This document shows positions 1-50,095 of a DNA stretch of 64,000 bases, piece after piece. The notes below the pieces were generated by a model, which did not search any database, was not told the DNA's origin, and worked only from the letters and a program-made list of their open reading frames with translations. The position numbers and the translations under genes are program-made. The stretch is from Cyanobacteria bacterium P01_F01_bin.150 (GTDB lineage: Bacteria; Cyanobacteriota; Cyanobacteriia; CAKZMO01), in the NCBI GenBank assembly GCA_039189765.1, contig JBCCYL010000002.1, positions 32,001-96,000 of the forward strand, in the 5' to 3' direction. How positions within the stretch are numbered: the stretch's first letter is position 1; each line of letters opens with the position of its first letter.

Positions 1-2
1 AA

Positions 3-335: not shown

Positions 336-369
336 TGTTGGCGATCGCAGAAGGCATTGCTAGGGGGCC

Positions 370-434
370 AGATCCCGGGGTTCTGCAAAAACGTATCGCC
401 AAACAACAAGGATGATATTAGAACCCCGGGATCT
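370..434. repeat. 65-bp palindromic element, copy 1 (15-bp inverted arms, 35-nt spacer)
   Basis: agatcccggggttct at 370-384 and agaaccccgggatct at 420-434 are exact reverse complements. Confidence 0.9.
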
Positions 435-452
435 CTGCGTAGCTGACCATTG

Positions 453-770
453 CTAGCCGATACGAACCTTCTTGGTTAACACGACCACTACTTCACCGGG
501 CTGTCCTGAGGGAACAGGATGGCTCCAGTCATTGGGTTCTGCATAGTTGAGGACGTACAGCAGCTTAATCGTGTTTTGGACTGCGGCGATGCTGCCAAAG
601 AGCATATGGCGCACGGGTTCGTAGTGGGGCGGCGACGATGACGACATCGTTGTACTAACGGCTACGGTATTTGCTGCATAATTCGCAATATAGCTTGAGG
701 TATAGTTTTCAGCGTAATATCCATCACAAACTGTGGGCGTAAATACGCCCGGTTCAAAGGGTTGAAACAT
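453..770 (-). CDS. Small cyanobacterial hypothetical protein
   Basis: 105-aa ORF; the C-terminal part (VRHMLFGS...LNYAEPNDWSHPVP...GEVVVVLTK) resembles a common small cyanobacterial family; GGAG upstream of the ATG. Confidence 0.6.
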   Translation of the reverse strand: MFQPFEPGVFTPTVCDGYYAENYTSSYIANYAANTVAVSTTMSSSSPPHYEPVRHMLFGSIAAVQNTIKLLYVLNYAEPNDWSHPVPSGQPGEVVVVLTKKVRIG

Positions 771-1195
771 GATTTCTGGTCTCCAGATATAACCATCAAT
801 GGATAGAGACCAGAACCCAAAATCACTCAGCCACTCCGCAACTTGTGGGACAAATCAGGGTAGCTGGGCGATAATCAACCCATACCTCCGAACTGCCTAC
901 GTCAGTTTTTGGGGTGTAGTCATCGGTGTGGTGTTCGTAGCACCCGCCGATGGCGCTAAGTCTCCTGAGTTCTGAGCCAGAGCGACGGCAAGGGGCTGAT
1001 GCGGTAAGTCACTTGGGTGTAAATTACCGATGCAGCGTTGTGCGATCGCCATAAAGACGAAAATAGGCTGATTCCTGTTCAGAGTCAAGCCTCAGAGGTG
1101 CCCGATAATCAACGCTATTTGGCAGAAATAGGCTGCTGAAGGCTGAAAAATCAGACAAAGGTAAGAGTTTTGTGGATTTTTGGGACAGTACGCCC

Positions 1196-1260
1196 AGATC
1201 CCAGGGTTCTACCCAACCTTCATTAAGATCGCCAAATTATTACCAAGAACCCTGGGATCT
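1196..1260. repeat. 65-bp palindromic element, copy 2
   Basis: agatcccagggttct 1196-1210 / agaaccctgggatct 1246-1260, perfect inverted repeat, 35-nt spacer. Confidence 0.9.
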
Positions 1261-1340
1261 CCCCAACGCCCTAACGCCCTAACGCCCCAACGCCCCAACC
1301 GTCCCTCTCCAAAATCTAAAATCTAAAATCCAAAATTCCA
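1261..1340. repeat. Short tandem repeats (8-mer cccYaacg and heptamer aaaatcY, STRR-like)
   Basis: ccccaacgccctaacgccctaacgccccaacgccccaac followed by aaaatctaaaatctaaaatcc. Confidence 0.8.
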
Positions 1341-1343
1341 AGG

Positions 1344-1520
1344 GGTTCAAGAAACTCTTCGGCGCACCTACCAAGCTCCCTGAACCGTTTGTATTTTTGG
1401 ATTACGTGCGTTTCCAAACTGCCGAGGCAAGCGGAACGCATTGCAATCACTGGAACAGGTCTGGACTCTTCAGGGCACTCCCAATGAATTCCCATCCATC
1501 AGCTCTGGCATAGAAGAGTA
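1344..1520 (-). ncRNA. Putative structured DGR spacer RNA 3' of TR
   Basis: Minus-strand stems: ACUCUUC/GAAGAGU (1519-1513 with 1471-1465) and a 13-bp stem with three G:U pairs at 1386-1344; lies directly downstream of TR. Confidence 0.55.
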
Positions 1521-1642
1521 CTGGGGGAGGAACAAACGAGGCGAAAGCCGATGTTGTTGTTCCTGTTGTCTGCGTCGTTCCTGTTACGGTTCGCCGAGCG
1601 GCAGTTCCTGGGATTGTTGATCCACGAACCACCCCGCAGCAG
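1521..1642 (-). other. DGR template repeat (TR)
   Basis: 122-bp match to 3579-3700 with 11 mismatches, all at coding-strand adenines; rich in AAC/AAT codons (reads LLRGGSWINNPRNCRSANRNRNDADNRNNNIGFRLVCSSP). Confidence 0.97.
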
Positions 1643-1705
1643 CAGAGGTGCCTGCCCCAGATTTAGTCTAAAGGATCTGGTTGACTGACCAAACATTGCC
1701 CCCAT

Positions 1706-1811
1706 GCAGTTGAAACTGCGGCTACACAAACAAAACCCGCCTACGCAGGTTAGGAGTAGTCCATTAGTCCCTGAAGAGGGACTTTGTCTGTATAGCCGCA
1801 AATTTATTTGC
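1706..1811. repeat. Inverted pair of REP-like double-hairpin repeats between RT and TR
   Basis: 1706-1751 (reverse) and 1766-1811 (forward) both read hairpin + ttgtYtgtRtagcc + GC-closed hairpin. Confidence 0.65.
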
Positions 1812-1820
1812 CAGGGCGAA

Positions 1821-2897
1821 TTAAGCCACCCCAGACCGACGGCTACGACGAAAGACCAGGGTGGCAAAAATATCTTGGCGTAGGTGCCAGCTATCGGCAT
1901 GTTTAAGGTGGGCACCCCAGCTCTGGATCGATTGAGTTAGGGATTTGACGCTAATCCGGCGTTTTTGATAGCGGCGCTGCAATCGCTTTAGGCGTCGTCG
2001 GGCGCGACGTAGGTTTTCGTTGCGAACGCGGATTCGGTCGGGCAGAATGCGAAAGCCGACAAAGTTTGCGCCGATTGCGGTGGCAAAAAGCTGACTTTTA
2101 ATTGGGTGAATAGTAAGACGAAGCGTAGCCAAATAGTCTTCAATGGCCTGTCGGGCTTGGACAAGTTCGGCTTTGTCGTGGCTAAAAAGGGCAAAATCAT
2201 CGACATAGCGAAGATAGGCGGAAATCTTAAGCTGCTCTTGGACAAAGTGATCGAAGCCGCTGAGGTAGATATTGGCAAAGCACTGGCTGGTAAGGTTGCC
2301 GATAGGAAGACCGCGTCGCCGTTCCAAGGGCGTAAGCAGGGTATCACCTGGGAAATGGCGAATAACGGGGATTTGCTCGTTGCTGCCGTCAATAATTAGG
2401 TCAATCAGCCAGAGAGTGTCGGGGCACTTAATTTTGCGCCGCAGAAGGGTCTTGAGAATTTCGTGGTCGATGCTGGGGAAATATTTGGTGATATCGCACT
2501 GGAGTACGTAGGGATAGGAGCGGGCACAGTGGGTAAAGCGCTGGAGGGCACGATGGGTCCCAAAGCCCCAGCGGTTTGCGTAGGAGTGGTGGATAAAGCT
2601 GCGTTCAAAGATGGGCATAATCACGTTGCACAGGGCATGGTGAACCACTCGATCGCGATAGGGTGCAGCGGAAATTATGCGGGGTTTGGGTTCTTTGATT
2701 TCAAAGGTATGATACTTTCCAGGGCGGTAGGTTTTAGTTTTAAGCTGATGCTGAAGGGTGATTAAATTTTGCTCTAAATTATAGTTAAAATCTAGAACAT
2801 TATCCCTAAATCGTTTGCCTTTTTGAGCATTACGGGCAGATACAAGTAGGTTTTCAAAATCAATAACTTTAGGCCAAAGATTACCGTAACGTTTCAT
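1821..2897 (-). CDS. DGR reverse transcriptase
   Basis: 358 aa; [31 protein letters not shown] (DGR-type SQ motif), catalytic RYVDDF; next to avd and TR. Confidence 0.97.
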
Positions 2898-2960
2898 CTA
2901 ATTAATTTATTTTCAGTTCCAAATTTTTAATTTTTAATTCTAAATTTTTAATTTTTAATT

Positions 2961-3329
2961 CTACACTAAGCTTCCTTGATTTACCCGAGGACTCCGCTTA
3001 CGCTGTTGCTTAATCCAGCCACCAAGATCCTTGCCGATAGTGTTGATTAATTCTCCAGCATGCTGATAACGATCTATTTTGATTAACTCAAAATCTAAAA
3101 GCAGGCGGGTTTGATGCCGAATCACGTCTAGCTTTGAGTTTAGAGCTTCAAGCCGTTCCAGTTTTTGGGTCGCATATCGGGCATAAATCAGCTCTTCTAA
3201 AAGATCGTAGAGATTAGAGGCCATCCGCTCTCCTAACATAAATTTATGCTGTTTGGGAAGACGATTAAGAATGGGAACGTACCATTTAATCAGGTCGTAG
3301 GTTTTCTGGATAATGGGCAAGTCTTGCAT
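2961..3329 (-). CDS. avd: DGR accessory variability determinant (Avd, four-helix bundle)
   Basis: 122 aa, LPIIQKTYDLIKWYVPILNRLPKQHKF...IGKDLGGWIK; directly upstream of the RT. Confidence 0.93.
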   Translation of the reverse strand: MQDLPIIQKTYDLIKWYVPILNRLPKQHKFMLGERMASNLYDLLEELIYARYATQKLERLEALNSKLDVIRHQTRLLLDFELIKIDRYQHAGELINTIGKDLGGWIKQQRKRSPRVNQGSLV

Positions 3330-3523
3330 TTATATGTGTACCGCCAAAAAAGATCACGTTTTATAAAGATTCAGTATTTCACAAAATAGAATACGGTACT
3401 ATTAAGTGGGAGACAGATATTTTTTAAGGAGTGTGCTGCACAATAGAGCTAATTTTAAAAAAGTAATTTGATTTCACTTTGTGAAAGCTTCGCTAACGCG
3501 CGTAGCGCGAAAAAAAGAGTAAA

Positions 3524-3573
3524 AATTAGCCCAAGAGCAAAGGGCAAAAAGGCAAAAGAATAGAGGGCTAATT
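3524..3573. promoter_or_regulatory. Inverted repeat directly downstream of VR1 (candidate DGR target-recognition hairpin)
   Basis: aattagccc 3524-3532 / gggctaatt 3565-3573, 9-bp arms with a 32-nt loop, overlapping the target stop codon. Confidence 0.45.
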
Positions 3574-5545
3574 AAGTCCTGGGGGAGGAACAAACGAGGC
3601 GAAAGCCGATGACGTCGTCCCAGTCGACTGCGTCGTTCCTGTTACGGTTCGCCGAGCGGCAGTACCAGGGATAGTTGACCCACGAACCACCCCGCAGCAG
3701 GCGACGGGTGGACTCTCCTGTTGTCCAAGCACTACCGTCTTTTGGAGCATTGTCGTAATTGTCATGCCAACGGTCTTCGCACCATTCCCAGACGTTGCCA
3801 TGCATATCGTAAAGGCCAAAGGCATTGGGCGGAAAGCTGCCGACTGGCATTGTTTTTTTCCGATATTCGCCTTCCGGGCCGTTGCCGTAGGTGTAGTTGG
3901 CGTCGTAATTGGCGATCGCCGTCGTCAACGTTGGCCCAAAATGAAATGGAGTCGTTGTTCCAGCCCGACAGGCATATTCCCATTCCGCTTCACTGGGTAG
4001 TCGATAGTTTTGGCCGAGGGGCGATAGTTTATTTAATCCTTCGAGGAAGGCGATCGCATCATCCCATGACACTTGTTCAACGGGGCGATCGCTCCCCTTG
4101 AATCCTGAAGGATTTTCACCCATTACGGCTTCATATACTGCCTGGGTCACCACAACCTTGCCCATATAAAAACTGGGCACCGTCACCCGATGAATCGGTT
4201 TTTCTGAATCATACTCATTAGACCCCATATCAAACGAACCACCCTTAATGTGCACCATATCAAAGGTGATGCCATTTCCTAAATCTTCGGTGAAATACTG
4301 AGCCTCCTTAGAAATTTTCTCAATAATTTTTCCCTTATCGTTTACCCGCACCGTTTCAAATGGAACCGTTAAGAGTGGTGATTGTGCGGTTGGTTGGGGC
4401 TTTGGTGAAGAAATCGGTGGTGGTGGCGTTGGAGCCTTTGCAACGGGAGAGAGTTGTGTCGGTGGTTGAGGCTTTGGGGAAGAAATGGTTGGTGCAGGCG
4501 TTGGAGCCTTTGCAACGGGAGAGAAAGGGGCGATCGCCTGTCCCTGGGGGAATCGGATTGGCTGAGGCGGCGTTGGTGCAGACGTGGCAGCAGGAGGATC
4601 AGAAGGCTTTTGCTGCGTCTCAATTGCCAAGCGCTGCTTTAGCGCCAGCGCTTTATCCTCTGCTGAACTTTCCGAACTCAATATGATTTGTTCCCACAGA
4701 TTTTTAGCCGACCCTAGATCTTGTAAAACATACTGGGCATGCAATGCATCCGCCTTAAGCTTATCAACATTGACCGTTGAAGGTGGAAGGGCAGGCTTTG
4801 GGGCTTTTTGGTCCTGAGATACAGGTAACAATAATTGCGTTGCCTTTTCCACTGGTTCTGCAATCACATAGGGGCGCTGGTTGCCAAACTTTTGGGTTAA
4901 GGTCGGTACAGTTTTCTGTAAATAGGCACTGAGTTTCCGTGCACTGCATTGGCTCGGTACACAATCTCCTCGCAGTGCATCCAATAAAGCATAGGTAAAC
5001 GCTCCGTGCTGATGCTCCTCTAGCTCATAGGACTTTTGCCCAGGACTACAGGAAAACAGCGTAATAATTCCGGCTTGTCGCACTAATTCAACGGTTTGGC
5101 TACCAATATCCTTGCCGTAGTCTGATACAACATTTCGACAAGCATCCAATACCAATACCAGGTTGCCTGCCTTACACTCCCGTAATGCTCGGACCACCTC
5201 GTCAACGGCAATGGCCGAATGAATCAAATCTTCTGGATCAGCATTGGTGGGCAACAAAAAATCTCGCCCTTGCTGTCGTCCGCCATGACCGCTAAAAAAG
5301 AGCCAAAAGCTATCGTTTCGTCCCAAACGAACTTTAGAGGAAATTGAGCGAAGGCCTCGTCTTAAATTAACTAGCTCAGGGTGTTGATGCTGGGATTGAT
5401 CGGAGTAGCGCAAGACTTCTTCAAAACCAATGTCCTGAAGGTAATTTTGCATGGCGATCGCATCATTCTCAGCAAATTGTAGATCCCTCAGATCGTCAAG
5501 CTGATAATGATTAACGCCGATAGTAAGGGCAACGTTTCTAGCCAT
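3572..5545 (-). CDS. DGR target: caspase-like peptidase C14 + Pro-rich linker + FGE-sulfatase (CLec-fold) domain
   Basis: FFSGHGG and VLDACRN (His/Cys dyad); FGE motifs RLPSEAEWEYACRAGT and NAFGLYDMHGNVWEWC; C-terminal VR matches TR. Confidence 0.95.
   Translation of the reverse strand: MARNVALTIGVNHYQLDDLRDLQFAENDAIAMQNYLQDIGFEEVLRYSDQSQHQHPELVNLRRGLRSISSKVRLGRNDSFWLFFSGHGGRQQGRDFLLPTNADPEDLIHSAIAVDEVVRALRECKAGNLVLVLDACRNVVSDYGKDIGSQTVELVRQAGIITLFSCSPGQKSYELEEHQHGAFTYALLDALRGDCVPSQCSARKLSAYLQKTVPTLTQKFGNQRPYVIAEPVEKATQLLLPVSQDQKAPKPALPPSTVNVDKLKADALHAQYVLQDLGSAKNLWEQIILSSESSAEDKALALKQRLAIETQQKPSDPPAATSAPTPPQPIRFPQGQAIAPFSPVAKAPTPAPTISSPKPQPPTQLSPVAKAPTPPPPISSPKPQPTAQSPLLTVPFETVRVNDKGKIIEKISKEAQYFTEDLGNGITFDMVHIKGGSFDMGSNEYDSEKPIHRVTVPSFYMGKVVVTQAVYEAVMGENPSGFKGSDRPVEQVSWDDAIAFLEGLNKLSPLGQNYRLPSEAEWEYACRAGTTTPFHFGPTLTTAIANYDANYTYGNGPEGEYRKKTMPVGSFPPNAFGLYDMHGNVWEWCEDRWHDNYDNAPKDGSAWTTGESTRRLLRGGSWVNYPWYCRSANRNRNDAVDWDDVIGFRLVCSSPRT
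3579..3700 (-). other. DGR variable region VR1
   Basis: Identical to TR at all 93 non-A positions; 11 of 29 TR adenines substituted. Confidence 0.97.
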
Positions 5546-5580
5546 ATCGATTTAATTCAACAGTCTCTCAATTTCCCTCT

Positions 5581-5722
5581 TCCCTAGTGCCCAGACTCCC
5601 TAGTGCCCAGACTCCCTGGTGCCCAGACTCTGGCTGGGTGCATCAAAGGGAGACTCTGGCTCCCCAGCCTCACCTGAGCCAGAGTCTCAGGTGAGGGTTC
5701 CCAGCCGGAGTCTGGGAACCAG
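5581..5722. repeat. REP-like palindromic repeat cluster (cccagactctggctggg family)
   Basis: cct(a/g)gtgcccagact three times, then gagccagagtctc and ggttcccagccggagtctgggaacc; related copy near 9690-9740. Confidence 0.7.
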
Positions 5723-5731
5723 GAGAGGGGC

Positions 5732-6136
5732 TTAGGGTTGACGTTCTGGCTTGCTTTCTGGCTTGCCAAACTTAAGGGTAATCGCGCCAGTGGCCCCCGC
5801 TTGGGTCCCGCCAATTCCCATTAGGCTTACCTTTCCCTCCGCACTAATCTGTACAGATAATTCAACCTCCTTCAGTTCCATTCCGGCTAAATCTCCCGCA
5901 TCCTTTTTGGCCTGCCCCAAGGCATTGCCCATGCTTTTCATCAGCCGGGTCAGCTCCCGCTGAATCGTCTGAGCCGACACCTGCACCGGACCAATGCCCT
6001 TACTAGCATCTGTCCCACCGGAACGAGGCGTATTGGATATTGCATCACTCAGAATCCCCTTACTTGGAGCCTCTGCACCCTCTCCACTTGGAGTATAAGT
6101 AATTAACGAAATCGTCTCATCTGACAGGTCTGCCAT
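5732..6136 (-). CDS. Pepco/Trypco-like peptidase-co-occurring small protein
   Basis: 134 aa with a helix followed by ELKEVELSVQISAEGKVSLMGIGG..AGATGAITLKF; directly upstream of a caspase gene; AGGAG upstream. Confidence 0.7.
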   Translation of the reverse strand: MADLSDETISLITYTPSGEGAEAPSKGILSDAISNTPRSGGTDASKGIGPVQVSAQTIQRELTRLMKSMGNALGQAKKDAGDLAGMELKEVELSVQISAEGKVSLMGIGGTQAGATGAITLKFGKPESKPERQP

Positions 6137-6156
6137 GGGGGGTCTCCTTATTACTA

Positions 6157-6296
6157 CAAAAACGTGTGTCTATTTTGTCACAGGAGTTTAGCACAGCCTA
6201 AATTATTCACAAAAGTCTTCCACCCATGCAAAGATCCCGGGGTTCTAATATCATCGTCGGGATAACCCAACACGTTTCGACAGAACCCCGGGATCT
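6157..6296. repeat. Direct repeat A (upstream region of the Pepco-like gene), including 65-bp element copy 3 at 6232-6296
   Basis: caaaaacgtgtgtctattttg...cctaaattattcacaaaa.tcttccaccca.gcaaagat matches 8117-8206. Confidence 0.9.
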
Positions 6297-6373
6297 GGCA
6301 CTGACCTTACTCCTAGAATCTAGAGGGATTCTAAAAATTCCTCAATCCAAAATCTAAAATCTAGAATCTAAAA

Positions 6374-8086
6374 TCAAATAGTTCTGGGGGAAGAACAGAC
6401 AAGGCGAAAGCCGAGGGCATAGTACCTGAGACCTGCATCGAGCCTGTGGCGGTTCGCTGAGCGGCAGAATCTGGGAATTTCCAACCACGCTCCCCCTCGC
6501 ATCCCGCGCAGGGTTGTATCTCCTGTTGTCCAGCTACTACCGTCACTTGGCGCATTGTCATAATTGTCATGCCAACGGTCTTCGCACCATTCCCAGACGT
6601 TGCCGTGCATATCGTAAAGGCCAAAGGCATTGGGCGGAAAACTGCCGACTGGTGTAGTTTTGTTTTGGTCTTTTCCTTTTGGCGCGTTGCCATAGGTGCC
6701 GCTACCGTCGTGGTTGGCGATCGCAGACGTTAATGTCGCCCCAAAATGAAACGGAGTCGTCGTTCCAGCTCGACAAGCATATTCCCATTCGGCTTCGCTG
6801 GGCAGTCGATAGTTTTGGCCAATAAGAGAATAGTCCTTGTTAAGGGCTTTGCAGAAGGCGATCGCATCATTCCATGCCACTTGTTTGACGGGGCGATTCT
6901 CATCTTGAGAGGCTTCGCCAACGCTTCCTTGAAAATTTGAGGGATTTTTACCCATTACGGCCTCATATACCGCCTGCGTCACCGTCACCATTCCCATAAA
7001 AAACGACGGCACACTTACCAAATGCTGTGGACCTTCATCGTTTCCGCGTTGCGCTTCATCAGGCGGTGAACCCATCGTAAAATCGCCACCTGGAATTTGC
7101 ACCATTGTAAACGTCACTCCATTGCTCAGGTTCTCCGTAAACCCATCCACTGTGACTGGATAGCGATTAGTAATATCGCCCCGGTCATTCGTTGGTCCGG
7201 CACTGGGCGATCGCTCCAGCAGTTGTAGCCACTCCGCCATTGACTGGGGACGATACTCCGGCTGAATCGCCATTCCCTTCATAATTGCCGCATTAACCCG
7301 GTCACTAATCGCCACATTCTTTTCCTGGGGCGGTACTAAATCATCGGGACGGGACTCCGCTAAGCTCACCCGTCGAGACAAGGATAGGGGCGGCACCTCG
7401 CCTGTTACCAAGGAATACAGCGTTGCGGCTAGGGCATAGACATCCGTAAATGCCCCTCGCTTGGCATGGGGCTGATACTGTTCCACCGGAGCATAACCAT
7501 CGGTCAAAAAGGGCGTATGTCTGCGGGTTAGGCTGGGGGTAAACTCACGGGCAATGCCAAAATCAATCAGCACCGCCTTGTCCGTCTCCTGCCGTACCAT
7601 AATATTGTTGGGCTTGATATCCCGATGCAGCAGCCCCTGACCATGCACGACCGATAGCGCTTGGCCCACTTGCTGGATATATCGTAGGGCATTAGCTTCA
7701 GTCAGCCTGCCCTTTGTACTAACCATCTCCGCTAAATCGACGCCATCGATGCACTCCATCACCATACAGGTCAGCCGCAGATATTTAGACAGAGTATTAC
7801 CTGGGTTGGGGTGGCACACCTTTTCTGTAAAAAAGCAGTGGACCTTAACAATATGAGGATGCTGACAGCCCCGAATCCTCAGGGCCTCGTTCATAAAATC
7901 ATCCTGAAAACTATCAAAGTCCGAGCGGATTTGGACCTCATCATTCAGGGTTTTAATCACCACCTCACCATAGTCCTGACTGGTGGCCAAATAGGTAATA
8001 CCAAAGCCCCCAACGCCCAGGACTTTTTTAATTCGATAGTTGCCCTCTTGTAGCCGTTGTCCTGGGGTCCATGCCATTCTAATCAA
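6374..8086 (-). CDS. Ser/Thr protein kinase + FGE-sulfatase (CLec-fold) domain; DGR target-like paralog
   Basis: GVGGFG, VVIK, HRDIKPNN, DFG, APVEQ kinase motifs; FGE domain similar to 3572-5545; VR-like C-terminus. Confidence 0.93.
   Translation of the reverse strand: MIRMAWTPGQRLQEGNYRIKKVLGVGGFGITYLATSQDYGEVVIKTLNDEVQIRSDFDSFQDDFMNEALRIRGCQHPHIVKVHCFFTEKVCHPNPGNTLSKYLRLTCMVMECIDGVDLAEMVSTKGRLTEANALRYIQQVGQALSVVHGQGLLHRDIKPNNIMVRQETDKAVLIDFGIAREFTPSLTRRHTPFLTDGYAPVEQYQPHAKRGAFTDVYALAATLYSLVTGEVPPLSLSRRVSLAESRPDDLVPPQEKNVAISDRVNAAIMKGMAIQPEYRPQSMAEWLQLLERSPSAGPTNDRGDITNRYPVTVDGFTENLSNGVTFTMVQIPGGDFTMGSPPDEAQRGNDEGPQHLVSVPSFFMGMVTVTQAVYEAVMGKNPSNFQGSVGEASQDENRPVKQVAWNDAIAFCKALNKDYSLIGQNYRLPSEAEWEYACRAGTTTPFHFGATLTSAIANHDGSGTYGNAPKGKDQNKTTPVGSFPPNAFGLYDMHGNVWEWCEDRWHDNYDNAPSDGSSWTTGDTTLRGMRGGAWLEIPRFCRSANRHRLDAGLRYYALGFRLVCSSPRTI
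6384..6503 (-). other. VR-like region VR2, diverged from the local TR
   Basis: Ungapped alignment to TR 1521-1640 gives about 16 mismatches at TR adenines and about 16 at non-adenines. Confidence 0.75.
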
Positions 8087-8116
8087 CTATCCAGCAATGA
8101 TGAGTTAGAAACGTAT

Positions 8117-8286
8117 CAAAAACGTGTGTCTATTTTGCCACAGGGTTTTAACACCGCCTAAATTATTCACAAAAATCTTCCACCCAAGCAAAGATTCCAG
8201 GGTTCTCTCGAAATGTCTCAAAGATCCCGGGGTTCTAATATTATCGTTGGGATGTCCCACAACGTTTCTACAGAACCCTGGGATCT
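8117..8286. repeat. Direct repeat B (upstream region of the kinase gene), including 65-bp element copy 4 at 8222-8286 and an extra half arm at 8192-8206
   Basis: Matches 6157-6296 with a 30-bp insertion. Confidence 0.9.
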
Positions 8287-8540
8287 CGCACCGACCAGCC
8301 ACTTTTGCAAAACCCCGGAACAAGCATCATCAAAAGTTAGATTACAGAGAGAAAGCATGGCAGTCAGAACAAGAAGTTATCTCAGCAATTGCTCTTGCGT
8401 TGGTTATCAAGGCTGTAATATGGGTCTCTGCGATAAATTCGCATAGATCAGCGCGTTAGACATCAGCTTGTCAAACAACAGGCATTATTGGCTCAAATCA
8501 ACTTTCAATCAACAGGCAAACATAAGGAGAGAGACGTTCA

Positions 8541-9665
8541 ATGGCTGCGGTAAAGAAGTCAGAAAATGTACCAAAAACGATGCAAGAGAAATACGACGCC
8601 ATTGTGGCGATTACCAATGAGTTCTCGAAAAAGCATCTAAACGAGGAATACGCTCAGCTTATTCGATTTGCCACCGCAGCCCTATGTCGAAAACGCCCAT
8701 CTCCCCTCGAAAAAGGCCGAGATAAAACCTGGGCCTGTGGCATCACCCATGCTGTAGGAATGACCAACTTTTTGTTTGATTCCTCCCAAACTCCCCATAT
8801 CAGGGCCAAAGAGCTGTACAAAGCCTTTGGCGTCGGAGAGAGCACGGGCCAGTCTAAATCAAAACAGGTGCGCGATACGTTAAAGATGCGCCAGATGGAT
8901 CACAACTGGTGCTTACCCAGCAGGATGGGAGATAGTCCATCAATCTGGATGATTTCGGTCAACGGCTATATTATGGATGCTCGCTCTGCCCCCAGGGAAA
9001 TCCAAGAAGTCGCCCTAGCACAAGGGCTGATTCCTTATCTCCCAGGCAAAGACGGTAAACCATTGGAGGAAGAATCAAAACTAGAACCAGAAGCATCTAC
9101 TACAGAAAAGTCAGGTGCAAAGTCATCTAAGCAATCTTCCAAGCAGTCATCTAAGCAATCTTCTAAGAAATCCTCCAAGCAATCTTCTAAATCAACCTCT
9201 AAACAGTCTGCCGATACTCTTTACGTTTTAGAAGTTGGCATTATTTCTGGGCCTGTCACTGAAGCGTTTATTAAAAAGAACCCGGAAATCAGCCGCGTTA
9301 TCGAAATTAAGGGCAGCAACACATTAAAAGATTTGCATCGAGCTATCTTCAGCGCCTTCGACCGAGAAGAGGAGCATATGTATGAATTTCAAATCGGTGG
9401 ACGAGGGCCAAATGATCCCAATGCACGACGGTATGGCATCAAGCCCCCATTTGATGATGAGGTGCCCGCAGGGTACGTCTCTAAAACCACAATGGACTCA
9501 TTGCAATTATCAGAAGATGAGGCTTTTGGGTATTGGTTTGATTTTGGCGATGATTGGTGGCATCAGATTAATGTTTTAACGATTCAGGATCAAGTACCCA
9601 AAGGAAAATATCCCAAAGTAACTAAGCGGGTAGGGGACAGTCCTCCCCAATATCCAGACCTTTAG
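8541..9665 (+). CDS. DUF6398-like N-terminal domain fused to a pRiA4b ORF3-like domain, with an SSKQ repeat linker
   Basis: N-terminal LCRKRPSPL...WACGI...NFLFD; C-terminal TLKDLHRAIFSAFDREEEHMYEF...YWFDFGDDWWHQI; AAGGAG upstream. Confidence 0.7.
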   Translation: MAAVKKSENVPKTMQEKYDAIVAITNEFSKKHLNEEYAQLIRFATAALCRKRPSPLEKGRDKTWACGITHAVGMTNFLFDSSQTPHIRAKELYKAFGVGESTGQSKSKQVRDTLKMRQMDHNWCLPSRMGDSPSIWMISVNGYIMDARSAPREIQEVALAQGLIPYLPGKDGKPLEEESKLEPEASTTEKSGAKSSKQSSKQSSKQSSKKSSKQSSKSTSKQSADTLYVLEVGIISGPVTEAFIKKNPEISRVIEIKGSNTLKDLHRAIFSAFDREEEHMYEFQIGGRGPNDPNARRYGIKPPFDDEVPAGYVSKTTMDSLQLSEDEAFGYWFDFGDDWWHQINVLTIQDQVPKGKYPKVTKRVGDSPPQYPDL

Positions 9666-9874: not shown

Positions 9875-12268
9875 TCAGACATCTGCGCTATCGTCCAAAT
9901 CGGATTCGTCATTATCTTCTAAACGAGTTTCTTCGTTATCGTTCAAATCGGGTTCTTCATTATCTTCTAAACGAGTTTCTTCATTATCTTCTAAACGAGT
10001 TTCTTCGCTATCGTCTAAATCGGGTTCTTCGCTGTTTTCCAAATTAGGCTCCTGGCTGTTGTCCTGATCTGGTTCTTCGTCGTCTTCTAGGTCTAGGTCA
10101 ATTTTGCCCATTTCAATCAAAAGTTCCTTAACCCGCTCTCGAATCCGAAGATGGCGTTCCACATCTTCAAACGCGTAGCGATTGTAGCCATTGCGCTCAA
10201 TCAGTCGCTCCAAATTTCTGATTCGTTCAGGGGTATCAGGGTGGGTGGATAACCAGTCGAAACGACTGCTATTTCCCGACTCATCCAATAGAGTTTGCAT
10301 CAAATTGCGCAGTCCATCGGCAGCATAGGGTGAAGACGCCAAAAGACGAGTGCCCAATCGGTCCGCTTGCCTCTCCATATCTCGGCTATAGCGAAGTACG
10401 GTGAGATTGGTCACCAATCCGCCATAGGGAACCGCCTGGAGCACATTTGCAGTCAGATTTCCCCGCGTCACCTGCTGAAAGCCGTGGGACAAAATCGCAT
10501 GGGCCAACTCATGGGCAATCAGTCCCGCCAGCTCCGCCCCCGTGTCCGTGCGGGTAATTGCACCCGCATTGATAAAGATTTTGCCACCAGGCAGGGCAAA
10601 AGCATTAAGTTCATCCTCCGCCACGACGTAGAATTCGTACTCAAACTCGGTTCGTCCCCCTAGTTCAGCCAGATCTTGGCCAATGTCGTTGACGTAGTCC
10701 AGCACCACTTCATCTTCAATCATATCCAGCTCATCGCGGGCATTACTGGCGATTCGTTCCCCGACTGCGGACTCGCCCCGAATCATCAAGACGGTTGTTT
10801 CCAACGCAGATAAGGGACCAAACCAGCTGCCTGTAAAGGCAAATCCCGCAGCTCCAGCGATCGCGTTCCCAATCGCAGTACGGGTTAACCGCCGCCGCAT
10901 CTTTCTACGGAATCGATCCTGATATTCATCTGCCTGGACTTGAAAAGCCTCAGCGTCAGGATGGTCCGGCTCCAGCAATGCAAACTGACGGGAGGCGATC
11001 GCCGCCTGTAGCCATTGCTCATCTGCCACCAGTGCGTCCACCCGTGTCGTTGCCAATTCAGGATTATCCGGATATAGAGCAGTAGCTTGTTCCAACACTT
11101 CCAGTGCTTCGTCAATTTCGTCGGCATTCACCAACACCTGAGCATAGGCCATATGCCCAGGAATAAACTCCGGCTGCTGTTCTCGCAGTAACGCCAAAGG
11201 AATGCGAGTTCGGGTATCGAGACCGGCTTCTAGTCCAGCTTGATATTCCCGCCAATAAACTGCTCCGGCGGGGGAAAGCTGCTCTGGGTCAGAAAACCCT
11301 TCCTGTCGCTCAAACGTCCCCTCTTCATGGAATGGGTCTTTGGCCTGGCGGTAGAGTTCTTCTGCCTCTGCAAATTTTCCTTCGAGGAACAGGCGATCGC
11401 CCTCAATCAATAGTCGCTGTCGCTCCAATTCTTCAGCAGTGAGTTCTTCAGCTTCTTCGTCATCCTCTGTAGTCGTCGTATCTTCTGTGGTCGTATCTTC
11501 TGTAGCCGCATCATTAGACTGGCCCTCGAGCCCAGTAGTCTCTGCGCGTTCACCTTCGAGTTCCTCTTCAGAACCTTGATTGGTTTCAAGCTCTGAATCG
11601 TTAGTCTGCTCTCCGCTAATCTGCTCTTCACCACTATTTTGGGGGGCAGTTGTTTCTTCTAATGTTTGGGTTTTAGCATCTATATCATCAGCGCTGCTCG
11701 CTTCATCTTCTTCAGTAAGGAGGTCTATATTTATATCTGCATCTGCATCTGCATCTGTTTCGGCGTTATCCGTACGGTCTGCTGCCGTAGTGTCAGTACC
11801 TGAAGGGGCAAGATCTGTGGATTCATTTTCAGGTGAATTACTACCCACTGCATCAGACTCTGGTAGGTCAGAGTCTGCTAGGTCAGGATCTGCCTGATGA
11901 TTGTCTATTGGTGATGTGGGGTCTGCCGATTCGGTTGTTTCTTGACTGTCTGCATCTGGCGACCTTTCTGGAAATACCCCTCCATCGGGGATTGTTTGAG
12001 GCGTGACATCTTGAGGCGTGACAGGTGTTACCGTAGGCACAACCTGCCCCATAAGCTCTTCTACAGTTGTCTGTAAGGATAGGTCCTCAGCAGGAAAAGA
12101 GGTAATAGGAAAGGTCTCGACAGTATTTTGAGGCGTGACAGGCTCTTTGGCCAACTTCAAAGATTCAGACGGAAGAGCAAGCGTTTCCGCTGCCATAAAC
12201 AGGGCAAGTCCCCCATAAAAAACACCGCTGCCGACTACTGTCATCAAGTGAAGTACGATTCTGTTCAT
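9875..12268 (-). CDS. M48 family zinc metallopeptidase with TPR region and acidic low-complexity termini
   Basis: NAFALPGG, HELAH, YSRDMERQAD, LSTHP motifs; signal-like N-terminus; 24-bp C-terminal repeats. Confidence 0.88.
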   Translation of the reverse strand: MNRIVLHLMTVVGSGVFYGGLALFMAAETLALPSESLKLAKEPVTPQNTVETFPITSFPAEDLSLQTTVEELMGQVVPTVTPVTPQDVTPQTIPDGGVFPERSPDADSQETTESADPTSPIDNHQADPDLADSDLPESDAVGSNSPENESTDLAPSGTDTTAADRTDNAETDADADADINIDLLTEEDEASSADDIDAKTQTLEETTAPQNSGEEQISGEQTNDSELETNQGSEEELEGERAETTGLEGQSNDAATEDTTTEDTTTTEDDEEAEELTAEELERQRLLIEGDRLFLEGKFAEAEELYRQAKDPFHEEGTFERQEGFSDPEQLSPAGAVYWREYQAGLEAGLDTRTRIPLALLREQQPEFIPGHMAYAQVLVNADEIDEALEVLEQATALYPDNPELATTRVDALVADEQWLQAAIASRQFALLEPDHPDAEAFQVQADEYQDRFRRKMRRRLTRTAIGNAIAGAAGFAFTGSWFGPLSALETTVLMIRGESAVGERIASNARDELDMIEDEVVLDYVNDIGQDLAELGGRTEFEYEFYVVAEDELNAFALPGGKIFINAGAITRTDTGAELAGLIAHELAHAILSHGFQQVTRGNLTANVLQAVPYGGLVTNLTVLRYSRDMERQADRLGTRLLASSPYAADGLRNLMQTLLDESGNSSRFDWLSTHPDTPERIRNLERLIERNGYNRYAFEDVERHLRIRERVKELLIEMGKIDLDLEDDEEPDQDNSQEPNLENSEEPDLDDSEETRLEDNEETRLEDNEEPDLNDNEETRLEDNDESDLDDSADV

Positions 12269-12408: not shown

Positions 12409-15222
12409 ATGACTTCATTTTCTGTTAGCCGTCTCTACTCTCGCCTTTTGCCCTTTTGCCTGTGGGCATTTCTCGGATTATGGCTTGCGCTTGGCGGTTC
12501 CTTTATTGCCGTTTATGCTACTGAATCAGCGGCTATCTCATCCGTCACTGTAGACTCAAATCAATCCCTGCTGCAAACTGGCATTACCGCTTTTCAATCG
12601 CAACGATACCGTGAGGCGATCGCCACCTGGGAAACCGCCCTGGCCCAATCCCCAGAAACTCCCTACAACCTTAACCGGGCACTCTTGCTAAGTAACCTTT
12701 CTCTGGCTCATCAACATTTAGGGGAACTGGCTAAAGCCGATCTTTATGTCACGGAAGCGTTGCGTTTATTTGCCCATACCTTTGAAGAAGAGGGGAGCGA
12801 TCGCCATAGTCTATTGGACTGGGAATACTATGCCAAAGCGCTTAACGCCCAGGGCTGGCTACAGTGGCGACAGGGGAATCTTGACCAAGCGCTTGAAGCA
12901 TGGCAGCAAAGTACTGTCGCCTACGATAACGCCGCTTATCAGCCCGGAGTCATCGGCAGCTTGCTCAACCAGGCCAAGGTGCTGCAAACCCTGGGGTTAA
13001 GCCGAGAGACCGAAGAGACGCTGCTTAAAACCCAGACCCTATTAGATGCACAATCGGACCCACAGCTAAAATCCCTGGGGCTGCGGTCCCTTGGCATCGC
13101 CTATCGCCAACTCGGAAAATTGGAGCAATCGATTACTGCCTTAACGGACGGACTACAGCATTTGGAAGTTCAGCTCCAACCGACAAATCTTACCGCGACC
13201 CAAGCGTCTCTCTTCCTTGAACTGGGCAATACTGAACGCGCCCGCTGGACCCTAACTTCAGCTATTAATCCCACCGTTGCCCCTCAACACCGAGATGATG
13301 CCTTGAACTGCTATCACCAAGCTGCATCCATAGCACCGTCCACCCTAGCTCAGCTCCAGGCGGATGCTAACGAATTAAGTTTGTACATCGATGTACTGCG
13401 CCAAGAGGATAGGGGGATAGAACTCAATATCGGCAGTGAGGCTGTGGGCACTTGTCCTCTGTCTTCAGATATCAAAGGAGCGGCATCCTTAGGTTGGATA
13501 AGTGGGCAATGGCAACATATTCAGGCGAGCCTGGCTCAACTTCCGCCGAGCCGAGCGGCAATCGAGCTTCAGCTTAATGTTGTAAATAGCCTTACAAAAT
13601 TGAGGGGTACCCTTTCTGAGTCAGAATTACTGGAACCCACATGGGCAGAAATGGGGCAGGCGTTGGCGATCGCCGTTGACCAAGCGACCCAACTCGATGA
13701 CGGTCGAACGGCATCATACGCCATGGGGCAGCTTGCCCATATTTACGAACGCAATGGCCAATGGGCAAATGCTCAATCGTTAACAAAAGAAGCGATTCGC
13801 CTAATTGAAGCGAAAGATATTCAAGCAGAGGATATTTTATATCGTTGGGAATGGCAATTGGGTCGGATTTTAGCCAAGCAGGGTAAACGGGAAAGGGCGA
13901 TCGCGGCCTATGACTCCGCCTACAAAACCTTAAAAACTATTCGAGGCAACCTGATTAGCATTAATGCTGATATTCAGTTTTCTTTCCGAGATAACGTTGA
14001 GCCGATTTATCGAGAATTTGCCGACTTATTGCTGCAAGCTGACTCAGGTTATCCTGACATCTATCAAGCCAATCTAAAACGGGCGACAGAGGTTATTGAT
14101 GATCTACAGCTTGCCGAGCTAGAAAACTTTCTGGGCTGTAACCTATCGTCGCGGCTACAGCTGAGTGAGAGAACCGTTGACCCAACTGCAGCCATTATCT
14201 ACCCAATTATCTTGTCTGATCGGATTGAGGTTATTCTCAAGTTACCCAATACGAGCAAGCTGTATCAATATACTCAGTTTGTCCCCGCATCGGAGGTGGA
14301 TGACACCCTAAAACAGCTACTTTTTGAACTGGGGCGGCCCTATCGTTCGCCGGAGGGCAAGGCACTGGGGCAACAGGTCTATGATTGGGTGATAAAACCC
14401 CTAAAACGTGATTTAAAAACTGCCCATATTAAAACGTTAGTGTTTGCGTTAGATGGGTCACTGCGTTCGATTCCCATGGCTGCGCTCTACAACGAAGAAA
14501 CAGTCGGAAATGAAACGACACGGACCTATCTGATTGAAGAATACGCCCTGGCAATAACCCCTGGCCTTAACCTTATTGAACCCCAACCCCTAAAGCAAAT
14601 TAGTCTGGATACCCTTGCATTTGGGCTGTCACAATTAAGAAAAGACTTTCCAATTCACGAGGGATTTTTATCGCTTCCGTATGTTGAAAATGAACTAGAT
14701 GAGATTCAAAACTATGTTTCTATAGAATCATTTCTAAATCAAGCCTTTACCGTTTCAACTCTGGAGGAACAAACCCAGGCGTCATCCTTTCCGATTCTCC
14801 ATTTGGCAACCCACGGCCAGTTTAGCTCAGACCCATCGGAAACCTTTATTCTTACTTGGGATAAACGGGTTGGAGTAAACCAGCTCAGCAATATTCTGCG
14901 GCAGCGCGATCAACGAACGCTAAAGCCAATCGAATTATTGATATTAAGCGCCTGTCAGACTGCCACAGGTGACAATCGGGCAGCCTTGGGTTTAGCAGGG
15001 GTAGCCGTTCAATCAGGGGCACGCAGCACTATTGCAACCCTTTGGACGGTGGATGATATTTCAACGGCAGATGTCATGAGTGCTCTCTATAAAGAGCTAT
15101 CTAAAACCGACGTTAATCTGACAAAGGCAGAAGCGCTGCAAAGAGCGCAAGTACAGCTTTTACAACAAAATGTTCCGCCCCAATATTGGGCACCTTATAT
15201 ATTAATTGGCAACTGGCTCTAA
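12409..15222 (+). CDS. TPR + CHAT (caspase/HetF-like) domain protein
   Basis: TPR-like repeats; LHLATHGQF, LILSACQTA, TLWTVDD, YWAPYILIGNWL. Confidence 0.92.
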   Translation: MTSFSVSRLYSRLLPFCLWAFLGLWLALGGSFIAVYATESAAISSVTVDSNQSLLQTGITAFQSQRYREAIATWETALAQSPETPYNLNRALLLSNLSLAHQHLGELAKADLYVTEALRLFAHTFEEEGSDRHSLLDWEYYAKALNAQGWLQWRQGNLDQALEAWQQSTVAYDNAAYQPGVIGSLLNQAKVLQTLGLSRETEETLLKTQTLLDAQSDPQLKSLGLRSLGIAYRQLGKLEQSITALTDGLQHLEVQLQPTNLTATQASLFLELGNTERARWTLTSAINPTVAPQHRDDALNCYHQAASIAPSTLAQLQADANELSLYIDVLRQEDRGIELNIGSEAVGTCPLSSDIKGAASLGWISGQWQHIQASLAQLPPSRAAIELQLNVVNSLTKLRGTLSESELLEPTWAEMGQALAIAVDQATQLDDGRTASYAMGQLAHIYERNGQWANAQSLTKEAIRLIEAKDIQAEDILYRWEWQLGRILAKQGKRERAIAAYDSAYKTLKTIRGNLISINADIQFSFRDNVEPIYREFADLLLQADSGYPDIYQANLKRATEVIDDLQLAELENFLGCNLSSRLQLSERTVDPTAAIIYPIILSDRIEVILKLPNTSKLYQYTQFVPASEVDDTLKQLLFELGRPYRSPEGKALGQQVYDWVIKPLKRDLKTAHIKTLVFALDGSLRSIPMAALYNEETVGNETTRTYLIEEYALAITPGLNLIEPQPLKQISLDTLAFGLSQLRKDFPIHEGFLSLPYVENELDEIQNYVSIESFLNQAFTVSTLEEQTQASSFPILHLATHGQFSSDPSETFILTWDKRVGVNQLSNILRQRDQRTLKPIELLILSACQTATGDNRAALGLAGVAVQSGARSTIATLWTVDDISTADVMSALYKELSKTDVNLTKAEALQRAQVQLLQQNVPPQYWAPYILIGNWL

Positions 15223-50091: not shown

Positions 50092-50095
50092 ACCT

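What the first reader, a model, noticed from the sequence alone, without database searches (positions are those of the whole stretch)
6374..6660. Second VR seems to follow a different template than the adjacent TR
Seen: the kinase-FGE 3' end (6384-6503) aligns without gaps to the TR but has about 16 mismatches at TR adenines and about 16 at non-adenines, many at third codon positions. The 100 bp at 6553-6652 differ from the caspase gene (3748-3847) at only 3 positions. Simple drift since duplication does not explain roughly 17% non-A divergence next to about 3%. Inference: VR2 is written by a second TR elsewhere in the genome, or it preserves an ancestral TR that was replaced in this cassette, or gene conversion homogenised the flank but not the VR.
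Basis: partly seen in the sequence, partly recalled or inferred. Interest (0 to 1): 0.75.

Follow-up and report, generated by a model that had tools for sequence, protein, structure and literature searches.

The report
Out-of-sync second variable region beside a retroelement
A cyanobacterial diversity-generating retroelement rewrites the tip of one neighbouring gene, while the similar tip of a second neighbouring kinase gene is an old relative that this element does not rewrite, which is an ordinary situation in these bacteria.

Summary
VR2 (6384-6503) differs from the TR at 16 adenines and 16 non-adenines, 14 of those 16 at third codon positions. The 100 bp at 6553-6652 differ from 3748-3847 at 3 sites.

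The odd part is the flank, not VR2. Silent-site divergence in the VR (10 of 24 codons, 10.4 expected) equals that of the rest of the two FGE domains. The roughly 150 nt just 5' of the VRs are unusually alike (4 of 39, 14.9 expected, P=5e-5). The pair also shares residues there that no relative has. This points to a short gene-conversion tract between two old paralogues.

VR2 has not been overwritten by the adjacent TR for as long as the paralogues have been apart. It also lacks the pyrimidine-rich 3' flank seen after all 15 TR-matched VRs of this DGR clade. The 64-kb window holds no second RT, TR or TR-linked RNA.

In 8 related loci, 16 of 16 FGE genes near a TR match it.

A second TR elsewhere in the genome could not be checked, because the genome is not in the accessible collections.

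Verdict: an ordinary, probably retired or never-recruited target. Interest is low to moderate.

The parts
1517..1642 (-). Template repeat (TR) of the DGR
   Evidence: It aligns ungapped to VR1 with 11 of 12 differences at TR adenines. Of its 30 adenines, 29 fall at codon positions 1 or 2 of the VR frame.
1340..1516 (-). Conserved structured RNA domain directly 3' of the TR (part of the DGR template RNA)
   Evidence: In an alignment with 7 related loci, 27 of 40 predicted pairs show compensatory changes. Covariance model R1 hits 1439-1522(-) at 84.7 bits; the next best hit in the window scores 9.8 bits. The window copy was in the training set. There is no Rfam match in 1-9000.
1821..2897 (-). 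DGR reverse transcriptase
   Evidence: Pfam RVT_1, E=2e-21. Motifs IGNLTSQ at residue 199 and YVDD at 231. It is 66-72% identical to the RTs of L004, L016, L030, L034 and L036.
2961..3329 (-). Accessory protein bAvd
   Evidence: Pfam bAvd, E=4.7e-22.
3490..3574 (-). Pyrimidine-rich 3' flank plus GC hairpin that follows VR1
   Evidence: It matches the flank shared by TR-matched VRs of related loci (alignment). The HMM built without the window scores it 10.4 bits at the expected place. Pyrimidine fraction 0.75, with a TA[AG]CCC motif.
3575..3700 (-). VR1, the variable region in register with the TR
   Evidence: 11 A-site differences and 1 junction difference in 126 nt.
3572..5545 (-). Caspase (Peptidase_C14)-FGE target gene
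   Evidence: Pfam Peptidase_C14, E=6e-27, and FGE-sulfatase, E=1.7e-55.
3701..3853 (-). Low-divergence tract, caspase-gene copy
   Evidence: 12 differences in 133 nt over 3721-3853, and 3 in 100 nt over 3748-3847. Silent differences are 4 of 39 against 14.9 expected.
5732..6136 (-). Pepco-domain gene upstream of the caspase gene
   Evidence: Pfam Pepco, E=6.5e-22. The same Pepco, caspase-FGE, Avd, RT, TR order occurs in L030.
6150..6306 (-). Upstream region of Pepco, duplicated upstream of the kinase gene; it contains the palindrome 6232-6296
   Evidence: 87-90% identical in ungapped blocks to 8105-8296.
6380..6505 (-). VR2, homologous to the TR but out of register with it
   Evidence: 35 differences in 126 nt: 16 at A and 19 at non-A, with 15 of those 19 at codon position 3. 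Differences reach the 3' end, at TR positions 1538, 1535 and 1529. The junction base is A where TR-matched VRs have G.
6506..6658 (-). Low-divergence tract, kinase-gene copy
   Evidence: Same as for 3701-3853.
6374..8077 (-). Ser/Thr kinase-FGE gene (ATG at 8077)
   Evidence: Pfam Pkinase, E=1.9e-35, and FGE-sulfatase, E=8.7e-59. The closest database relatives are at most 73% identical over about half the protein.
8105..8296 (-). Second copy of the duplicated upstream region, with palindrome 8222-8286

Best explanation
The locus is a normal cyanobacterial DGR read on the minus strand: Pepco, caspase-FGE (VR1), bAvd, RT, TR. A structured RNA domain follows the TR.

Inferred mechanism: the TR RNA is reverse-transcribed with errors at adenines, and the cDNA replaces VR1.

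The kinase-FGE gene just upstream carries VR2. VR2 is the homologous tip of an anciently diverged FGE paralogue. It is not rewritten by this TR. Its non-adenine differences are ordinary, selection-filtered paralogue divergence, mostly silent third positions, and are as large as in the rest of the FGE domain.

What made VR2 look odd is the about 130-150 nt just 5' of both VRs. A short gene-conversion or recombination event between the two neighbouring paralogues made that stretch nearly identical more recently.

VR2 most likely is no longer, or never was, a retrohoming target. It lacks the 3' flank that accompanies every TR-matched VR in this DGR clade. In its place are heptamer repeats and a palindromic element.

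Shown: the counts, the divergence profile, the pair-specific similarity, the absence of a second TR, RT or TR-RNA in the window, and the missing flank.

Inferred: that the flank is needed for homing, and that no matching TR exists elsewhere in the genome.
For: 1. Every retrohoming event copies the TR's non-A bases into the VR from the 3' end inward. VR2 differs from the TR at 16-19 non-A sites spread over the whole VR, including three in the last 45 nt.

2. 14 of 16 non-A differences are at third codon positions (P=3e-4). That is long-term divergence, not RT error.

3. Among aa-identical codons, silent differences are:
- background FGE: 10/37 two-fold and 27/54 four-fold
- VR: 10/24, against 10.4 expected (P=0.52)
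- patch: 4/30, against 10.9 expected (P=0.004)
- patch plus the 47 nt up to the VR: 4/39, against 14.9 expected (P=5e-5)
. Nei-Gojobori pS is 0.61 for background, 0.44 for the VR and 0.22 for the patch.

4. The patch is under no general nucleotide constraint. Third-position identity to 99 homologous HSPs is 50%, against 46% in a control block, with a maximum of 80%.

5. The FGE cores of the pair are 67% identical. That is no closer than to other genera (49-68%). In the tract the pair is 95% identical, against 61-82% to others, with residues unique to the pair.

6. VR2 is 20% different at non-A sites from the window TR. That equals the distance between the window TR and the L030 TR.

7. In 8 loci with a TR, all 16 FGE genes have VRs with 0-5 non-A differences. 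L030 has the same core cassette without a kinase-FGE gene.

8. All 15 TR-matched VRs of the clade (14 in loci, plus VR1) are followed by a pyrimidine-rich tract, with pyrimidine fraction 0.57-0.76 and C fraction 0.23-0.33. VR2's flank has pyrimidine 0.51 and C 0.09, no motif, and no HMM hit even with filters off.

9. The window has one RT, one Avd, no further TR-like copy and one TR-linked RNA domain.
Against: - A-sites in VR2 are enriched for differences (16/29 against 16/91), and VR2 keeps the TR's codon layout. It therefore was, or still is, diversified by some TR of this kind.
- The gene is intact, so nothing shows decay.
- The rest of the source genome could not be searched. Its contig is 181,767 bp, of which the window is 64 kb.
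- The need for the 3' flank is inferred, not tested. The leave-one-locus-out HMM recovered it in only 5 of 13 TR-matched VRs at E<=0.01, and gave some hit in 9 of 13. The '15 of 15' therefore rests on composition and on reading the alignment.
- The tract was picked post hoc. With about 5-7 windows of that size in the domain, P=0.004 for the patch alone is modest.
- The 47 nt between the patch and the VR hold 11 differences, about 7 of them non-synonymous by the estimate, so the tract is not clean.
Confidence: 0.62

Rival explanations
1. VR2 is an active target of a second TR located outside the window. That TR either belongs to a second DGR or is a second TR served in trans by this RT. VR2 stays in register with that TR.
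For: - A-site enrichment and a preserved codon layout in an intact gene.
- Trans and remote targets, and genomes with several DGRs, are documented (passages read): PMC5758913, PMC10907252, PMC7517822 and PMC7159879.
- 69 of 76 related FGE loci have no TR of this clade within the fetched flanks, so distant TRs or no TR are the rule for such genes.
Against: - No TR-like copy, second RT or second TR-linked RNA domain in 64 kb.
- VR2 lacks the 3' flank found after all 15 TR-matched VRs of the clade, and has A instead of G at the VR/TR junction.
- No Asn-rich TR-like short ORF was found with the VR2 peptide. The search gave 1 hit, which is not TR-like. This is a weak negative.
- No match in PLSDB plasmids.
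Confidence: 0.2
2. VR2 preserves the sequence of an ancestral TR of this cassette. The RT-TR module, or the TR alone, was later replaced or diverged quickly, and only VR1 followed the new TR.
For: - Among 9 TRs compared, VR2 is closest to the window's own TR: 20% non-A difference, against 29-51% for the other 8.
- Silent divergence falls towards the 3' end of the genes.
Against: - The VR1/TR constant residues match the caspase-FGE relative L030. Those of VR2 match the kinase-FGE relative P0005. The two VR types therefore predate this cassette.
- L030 has the same core cassette without a kinase gene.
- VR divergence is no lower than the old FGE-core background.
Confidence: 0.08
3. VR2 is still hit by the adjacent TR. 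The non-A differences come from non-canonical (non-A-to-N) mutagenesis or from rare, partial homing.
For: Non-A-to-N differences occur in 86 of 372 curated DGRs, and targets of one DGR can differ in this respect (PMC5758913, passages read).
Against: - The highest number per target in that survey was 11. VR2 has 16-19.
- 14 of 16 are at third codon positions and mostly silent, which mutagenesis would not produce.
- The differences reach the 3' end, where every homing event would erase them.
Confidence: 0.03

Closest known systems
Cyanobacterial DGRs with C-type-lectin/FGE targets fused to kinase or orthocaspase domains, and their 'VP paralogues' (Vallota-Eastman et al. 2020, PMC7517822; passages read)
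   Same: - An RT, Avd and TR cassette.
- The VR lies at the 3' end of FGE/CLec genes with kinase or caspase N-termini.
- Paralogues with varying VR/TR homology occur inside DGR loci as well as far away.
   Different: Here the out-of-register paralogue lies 2.7 kb from the in-register one. The two have exchanged a short stretch next to the VR. In my sample of 8 TR-bearing loci, all 16 neighbouring FGE genes were in register.
Thiohalocapsa PB-PSB1 DGR loci (Dore et al. 2024, PMC10907252; passages read)
   Same: - A perfect match at non-adenine sites is used there as the test for which TR serves a VR.
- Some VRs have no perfect match anywhere.
- Targets arise by duplication and recombination.
- MITE-like repeats degrade redundant parts.
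   Different: No population data exist here, so activity cannot be measured. The organism and the domain partners also differ.
Bordetella phage BPP-1 DGR target recognition (Guo et al. 2011, PMC3240598; abstract and passages read)
   Same: Sequence just 3' of the VR, containing a GC-rich hairpin, is needed for efficient homing. This gives a precedent for reading VR2's missing flank as loss of target competence.
   Different: The BPP-1 element is 24 bp with an 8-bp stem and a GRNA loop, 4-34 bp from the VR. The flank seen here is a pyrimidine-rich tract of about 60 nt, with a hairpin about 65-85 nt from the VR. Its function is untested.
Multi-target and non-canonical DGRs in the curated survey of Wu et al. 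2018 (PMC5758913; passages read)
   Same: Two or more targets per cassette are common (50 of 372 with two). Targets of one DGR can differ in non-A-to-N differences.
   Different: The maximum there was 11 non-A-to-N differences in one target. VR2 has 16-19, beyond what that survey accepted as a target.

Membership tests
Diversity-generating retroelement (the cassette itself) | Reverse transcriptase of the DGR type with an intact catalytic motif | tested here: met
   RVT_1, E=2e-21. YVDD and IGNLTSQ are present. That the second motif is DGR-typical is recalled, not tested. The RT is 66-72% identical to RTs beside TR/VR pairs in 5 loci.
Diversity-generating retroelement (the cassette itself) | A TR/VR pair whose differences fall at TR adenines, with the VR at the 3' end of a target gene | tested here: met
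   TR against VR1: 11 of 12 differences are at A, and the twelfth is at the junction.
Diversity-generating retroelement (the cassette itself) | Accessory protein (Avd) and a structured RNA beside the TR | tested here: met
   bAvd, E=4.7e-22. The RNA domain 3' of the TR covaries, with 27 of 40 pairs compensatory.
Target (VR) of the adjacent TR - applied to VR2 | Differences from the TR confined to TR adenines, allowing minor exceptions | tested here: not met
   16 differences at A and 16 at non-A in 120 nt. The 16 TR-matched VRs in related loci have 0-5 non-A differences.
Target (VR) of the adjacent TR - applied to VR2 | Identity with the TR over the 3'-terminal (IMH-like) segment, and the VR-type junction base | tested here: not met
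   Three silent differences in the last 45 nt. The junction base is A, while VR1 and 13 of the 14 TR-matched VRs shown have G and the TRs have C or T.
Target (VR) of the adjacent TR - applied to VR2 | The clade-typical 3' flank (pyrimidine-rich tract, GC hairpin) | tested here: not met
   Pyrimidine 0.51, C 0.09, no motif and no HMM hit, against 15 of 15 TR-matched VRs that have the tract. That the flank is required for homing is not testable here.
Target (VR) of the adjacent TR - applied to VR2 | Homologous position and frame at the 3' end of an FGE/CLec gene, with variable codons opposite the TR's AAC codons | tested here: met
   Ungapped alignment in the same frame. A-sites are enriched for differences.
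Target of some other TR (trans or remote target) - applied to VR2 | A TR elsewhere that matches at all non-A positions | tested here: inconclusive
   None in the 64-kb window.
Gene-conversion tract between paralogues (3701-3853 / 6506-6658) | Silent divergence significantly below that of the flanking homologous sequence | tested here: met
   4 of 39 against 14.9 expected, P=5e-5. The VR on the other side shows 10 of 24.
Gene-conversion tract between paralogues (3701-3853 / 6506-6658) | Similarity specific to the pair and not shared with outgroups | tested here: met
   95% protein identity in the tract, against 61-82% to 13 homologues. Third-position identity to 99 HSPs is 50%.

The most novel reading that the evidence does not exclude
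In this cyanobacterial DGR clade, target competence is set by a clade-specific element 3' of the VR: a pyrimidine-rich tract of about 60 nt, then a GC hairpin. This differs from the BPP-1 hairpin. On this reading the kinase-FGE gene was switched off as a target when that element was replaced. The replacement was a rearrangement that put heptamer repeats and a palindrome-bearing copy of the Pepco upstream region behind VR2. The frozen VR2 and the short conversion tract would then be the footprint of a natural decommissioning of one DGR target, while its neighbour stays active.
Probability: 0.25. Interest if true: 0.5.

Novelty: new member of a known kind. Interest (0 to 1): 0.3.

Why it matters
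The result shows how to read an out-of-register VR. Compare its silent divergence with the rest of the domain before invoking a second template.

It gives a clear local example of the split between a rewritten and a non-rewritten paralogue side by side.

Two by-products may help annotate which FGE genes in cyanobacteria can be DGR targets. One is the shared 3' flank of TR-matched VRs. The other is the covarying RNA domain 3' of the TR, which has no Rfam family. Both need experiments.

For the finding itself the outcome is ordinary. Paralogues with partial TR homology inside cyanobacterial DGR loci are already described (PMC7517822).

Tried and rejected
- **Exact pattern scan of genome contigs.** I used the shared 3' end of the TR and VRs, with the three variable sites left open. 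It gave 0 hits. The source genome is therefore not in that collection, and no TR2 search was possible there.

- **Close relatives for a strain-level comparison of VR2.** The protein's cluster has 1 member. The next relatives are at most 73% identical over about half the protein, and at most 57% in genome contigs. No comparison was possible.

- **Short-ORF search with the 43-aa VR2 peptide, to catch a gene-called TR2.** It found 1 candidate, P0121, which is not Asn-rich. This is a weak negative.

- **PLSDB plasmids, blastn with VR2.** No match.

- **Rfam on 1-9000 at E<=0.1.** Nothing.

- **Classical GC hairpin close to the VR.** None is convincing for VR2. TR-matched VRs in related loci mostly lack a perfect stem of 10 bp or more in their 200 nt of 3' flank as well. 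That criterion alone was dropped.

- **HMM of the 3' flank as a strict classifier.** Leave-one-locus-out recovery was only 5 of 13 at E<=0.01, because the element is low-complexity. I used it as supporting evidence only.

- **An exact match between the tract's 3' edge and the TR's 5' edge.** I considered that this would show VR1 being re-overwritten after a longer conversion. The 47 nt between patch and VR hold 11 differences, so the edge can only be placed within about 20-50 nt. The idea is kept as speculation.

- **Is another known TR closer to VR2 than the window's TR?** No. The other 8 TRs differ at 29-51% of non-A sites.

- **Similarity decay upstream of VRs in other multi-target loci.** The bin -76 to -150 is often the most similar bin because of protein constraint. 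Raw nucleotide identity of the patch is therefore not evidence on its own, and I used the stratified silent-site test instead.

- **Not checked.** No supplementary files of any paper were opened.
Full report
**What is there**

All parts of the locus lie on the minus strand:
- a Ser/Thr kinase-FGE gene, 6374-8077;
- a Pepco-domain gene, 5732-6136;
- a caspase (Peptidase_C14)-FGE gene, 3572-5545;
- bAvd, 2961-3329;
- a reverse transcriptase, 1821-2897, with YVDD and IGNLTSQ motifs;
- a 126-nt template repeat (TR), 1517-1642.

Three ungapped copies of the repeat exist in the window and no others: TR, VR1 = TR+2058 (3575-3700) and VR2 = TR+4863 (6380-6505). HIP1-like GCGATCGC sites and all database relatives point to a cyanobacterium. 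The nearest proteins carry Leptolyngbyaceae labels.

**Check of the observation**

TR against VR1 shows 12 differences in 126 nt. Eleven are at TR adenines and one is at the junction. This is a textbook TR/VR pair.

Fourteen of those 16 are at third codon positions (P=3e-4), and A-sites are enriched (P=2e-4). The codon table shows that 11 whole codons differ only silently.

The 100 bp at 6553-6652 differ from 3748-3847 at 3 sites.

**Where the anomaly really lies**

The two FGE domains are 76% identical in DNA over 624 nt and 172/242 identical in protein.

Nei-Gojobori silent divergence (pS) by segment:

| Segment | pS |
|---|---|
| N-terminal part of the domain | 0.65 |
| Next block | 0.55 |
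| Patch | 0.22 |
| 47 nt between patch and VR | 0.27 |
| VR | 0.44 |

I then counted only aa-identical codons, stratified by degeneracy:

| Segment | Silent differences | Expected at background rate | P |
|---|---|---|---|
| Background | 10/37 two-fold, 27/54 four-fold | - | - |
| VR | 10/24 | 10.4 | 0.52 |
| Patch | 4/30 | 10.9 | 0.004 |
| 47 nt between patch and VR | 0/9 | 4.0 | 0.004 |
| Patch plus the 47 nt | 4/39 | 14.9 | 5e-5 |

VR2 is therefore exactly as far from VR1/TR as the rest of the domain. The about 150 nt in front of the VRs are the outlier.

**Is the tract a constraint or an exchange?**

Against 99 homologous FGE segments from 76 loci, the kinase gene's third-position identity in the patch is 50%, against 46% in a control block, with a maximum of 80%. 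So there is no general nucleotide constraint.

In protein, the pair is 95% identical in the tract (42/44), against 61-82% to 13 other homologues. In the FGE core the pair is 67% identical, no closer than homologues from other genera at 49-68%.

The pair shares residues in the tract that none of the relatives shown has. This is pair-specific homogenisation of a short stretch between two old paralogues, that is, gene conversion or recombination.

Two caveats apply. The tract was chosen post hoc. The 47 nt next to the VR contain 11 differences, about 7 of them non-synonymous by the estimate, so the tract's 3' edge can only be placed within about 20-50 nt of the VR boundary.

**What this says about VR2 and the adjacent TR**

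Retrohoming copies the TR's non-A bases into the VR starting at the 3' end. VR2 carries silent differences throughout, including three in its last 45 nt. No cDNA from this TR lineage has entered it for as long as the paralogues have been diverging.

VR2's non-A distance to the window TR is 20%. That equals the distance between the window TR and the TR of L030, a Synechococcales genome whose RT is 72% identical. None of the 8 other TRs is closer to VR2; they differ at 29-51%.

The constant residues of VR1/TR agree with the caspase-FGE relative in L030. Those of VR2 agree with the kinase-FGE relative P0005. The two VR types therefore belong to two old gene lineages.

**Comparison with related cassettes**

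Seven of the 76 loci fetched with the kinase-FGE protein carry a TR of this clade (L002, L004, L009, L016, L030, L034, L036). One more (L062, Cytophagia) carries a distant DGR.

These 8 loci hold 16 FGE genes. All 16 VRs match their TR, with 0-5 non-A differences. L004 has three kinase-FGE genes, all in register with one TR.

The window is the exception, with 1 of 2 in register.

L030 has the same core order (Pepco, caspase-FGE, Avd, RT, TR) and no kinase-FGE gene. In the window, the kinase gene is bracketed by two copies, 87-90% identical, of a region of about 190 nt. That region otherwise precedes Pepco (6150-6306 and 8105-8296). Both points fit the kinase gene being a later arrival at this cassette.

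Outside cassettes, clusters of FGE paralogues with mixed differences and no TR within the flanks are common; 9 further loci show them.

**A missing 3' flank**

All 15 TR-matched VRs of the clade (14 in loci, plus VR1) are followed by a pyrimidine-rich tract. Its pyrimidine fraction is 0.57-0.76 and its C fraction 0.23-0.33, and 12 of 15 have a TA[AG]CCC motif. In most, a GC hairpin and a T-run follow about 65-85 nt downstream.

An HMM built without the window finds it after VR1 (10.4 bits). It finds nothing after VR2 or the TR, even with filters off.

VR2 is followed instead by heptamer repeats and then a palindrome (pyrimidine 0.51, C 0.09).

At the VR/TR junction, VR1 and 13 of the 14 TR-matched VRs shown have G, where the TRs have C or T. 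VR2 has A.

In phage BPP-1, sequence just 3' of the VR is required for efficient homing (PMC3240598, abstract and passages). By analogy I read the missing flank as loss of target competence. This step is inferred. The HMM is a weak classifier (5 of 13 at E<=0.01 when the tested locus is left out). It also finds the flank behind 10 of 68 FGE genes without a nearby TR.

**A second TR?**

Within the window there is no other TR-like copy, no second RT or Avd and no second copy of the covarying RNA domain that follows TRs in this clade. Model R1 gives 84.7 bits at 1439-1522, and the next best hit is 9.8 bits.

Beyond the window nothing could be checked. The source genome is absent from genome contigs and its protein cluster has one member. 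A short-ORF search gave one hit, which is not TR-like. PLSDB gave none.

**Verdict**

| Explanation | Confidence |
|---|---|
| VR2 is the tip of an old kinase-FGE paralogue that the adjacent DGR does not rewrite; the near-identical flank is a short conversion tract; VR2 is probably a retired or never-recruited target | 0.62 |
| A second TR elsewhere writes VR2 | 0.20 |
| VR2 preserves a replaced ancestral TR | 0.08 |
| Non-canonical mutagenesis by the adjacent TR | 0.03 |

The non-canonical-mutagenesis model is contradicted by the third-position bias and by the count exceeding the maximum of 11 in the curated survey (PMC5758913, passages).

**What is known**

Three points are already in print, all read as passages:
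- CLec/FGE paralogues with varying VR/TR homology, inside DGR loci and elsewhere, often with kinase or orthocaspase N-termini (PMC7517822).
- The 'perfect match at non-adenine sites' test, VRs without any match, target birth by duplication and recombination, and erosion by MITE-like repeats (PMC10907252).
- FGE domains coupled to DGRs in cyanobacterial conflict systems, with the TR nearby or elsewhere (PMC7159879).

The finding is therefore a new member of a known kind.

I ran no search aimed at prior descriptions of the shared 3' flank or of the RNA domain 3' of the TR in this clade. The DGR papers I opened were read only at the passages my search terms returned, and none of those passages mentions either. 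I make no claim that they are unpublished. That TR RNA needs flanking segments for cDNA synthesis is known for BPP-1 (abstract in the listing).

Noticed in passing
window 370-434, 1196-1260, 6232-6296, 8222-8286 (plus half copy 8192-8206); L023 11859-11951; L021 about 3300-3365: A 65-nt palindrome (15-nt arms, 35-nt spacer) occurs 4 times, all within the first 8.3 kb around the DGR. There are none in the other 55.7 kb (9 arm hits against 0.11 expected). Related palindromes sit just 3' of full-length kinase-FGE genes in two other cyanobacteria. They are the only ones in 1.2 Mb of fetched loci. The element looks MITE- or REP-like, and its role is unknown.
   Followed up: partly
window 6150-6306 and 8105-8296: The regions upstream of the Pepco gene and of the kinase gene are duplicates of about 190 nt, 87-90% identical in blocks, with a 30-nt indel. 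Each contains the palindrome. This suggests a shared promoter or leader, or insertion of the kinase gene by recombination in this region.
   Followed up: partly
window 1340-1530 (minus strand); L002, L004, L009, L016, L030, L034, L036 just 3' of their TRs: A conserved, covarying RNA domain of about 190 nt follows the TR. 27 of 40 predicted pairs show compensatory changes in 8 sequences. There is no Rfam match. A covariance model of its first 87 positions finds it only beside TRs (all hits are training sequences). It is probably the counterpart of the BPP-1 spacer RNA.
   Followed up: partly
window 3490-3574 (minus strand) and the 3' flanks of 14 TR-matched VRs in 7 loci: A shared pyrimidine-rich tract, usually with a GC hairpin and a T-run, follows TR-matched VRs. 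The HMM also finds it behind 10 of 68 FGE genes without a nearby TR at E<=0.01. It may mark genes that can be targets.
   Followed up: partly
L004 1869-1991: One of three kinase-FGE VRs served by one TR is the most degenerate of the sample. It has 5 non-A differences, its last about 15 nt no longer align to the TR, and its junction resembles VR2's. It may be an early stage of falling out of register.
   Followed up: no
window 4382-4524: Two tandem 72-nt copies, 87% identical, lie in the Pro-rich linker of the caspase-FGE gene between the caspase and FGE domains.
   Followed up: no
window 1308-1345, 6339-6376, about 41786-41821, about 57268-57318: Heptamer tandem repeats (AAAATCT type), reminiscent of cyanobacterial STRR repeats (the name is recalled). 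They occur 3' of the TR and directly 3' of VR2, and are also found in several fetched loci.
   Followed up: no
window 3-335, 8541-9665, 9875-12268, 12409-15222, 15397-24726, 50045-57271: The neighbourhood holds an XisI gene, a DUF6398/PRiA4_ORF3 gene, a TPR-M48 peptidase and a TPR-CHAT protein. Two very long ORFs of 3109 and 2408 aa were not examined.
   Followed up: no
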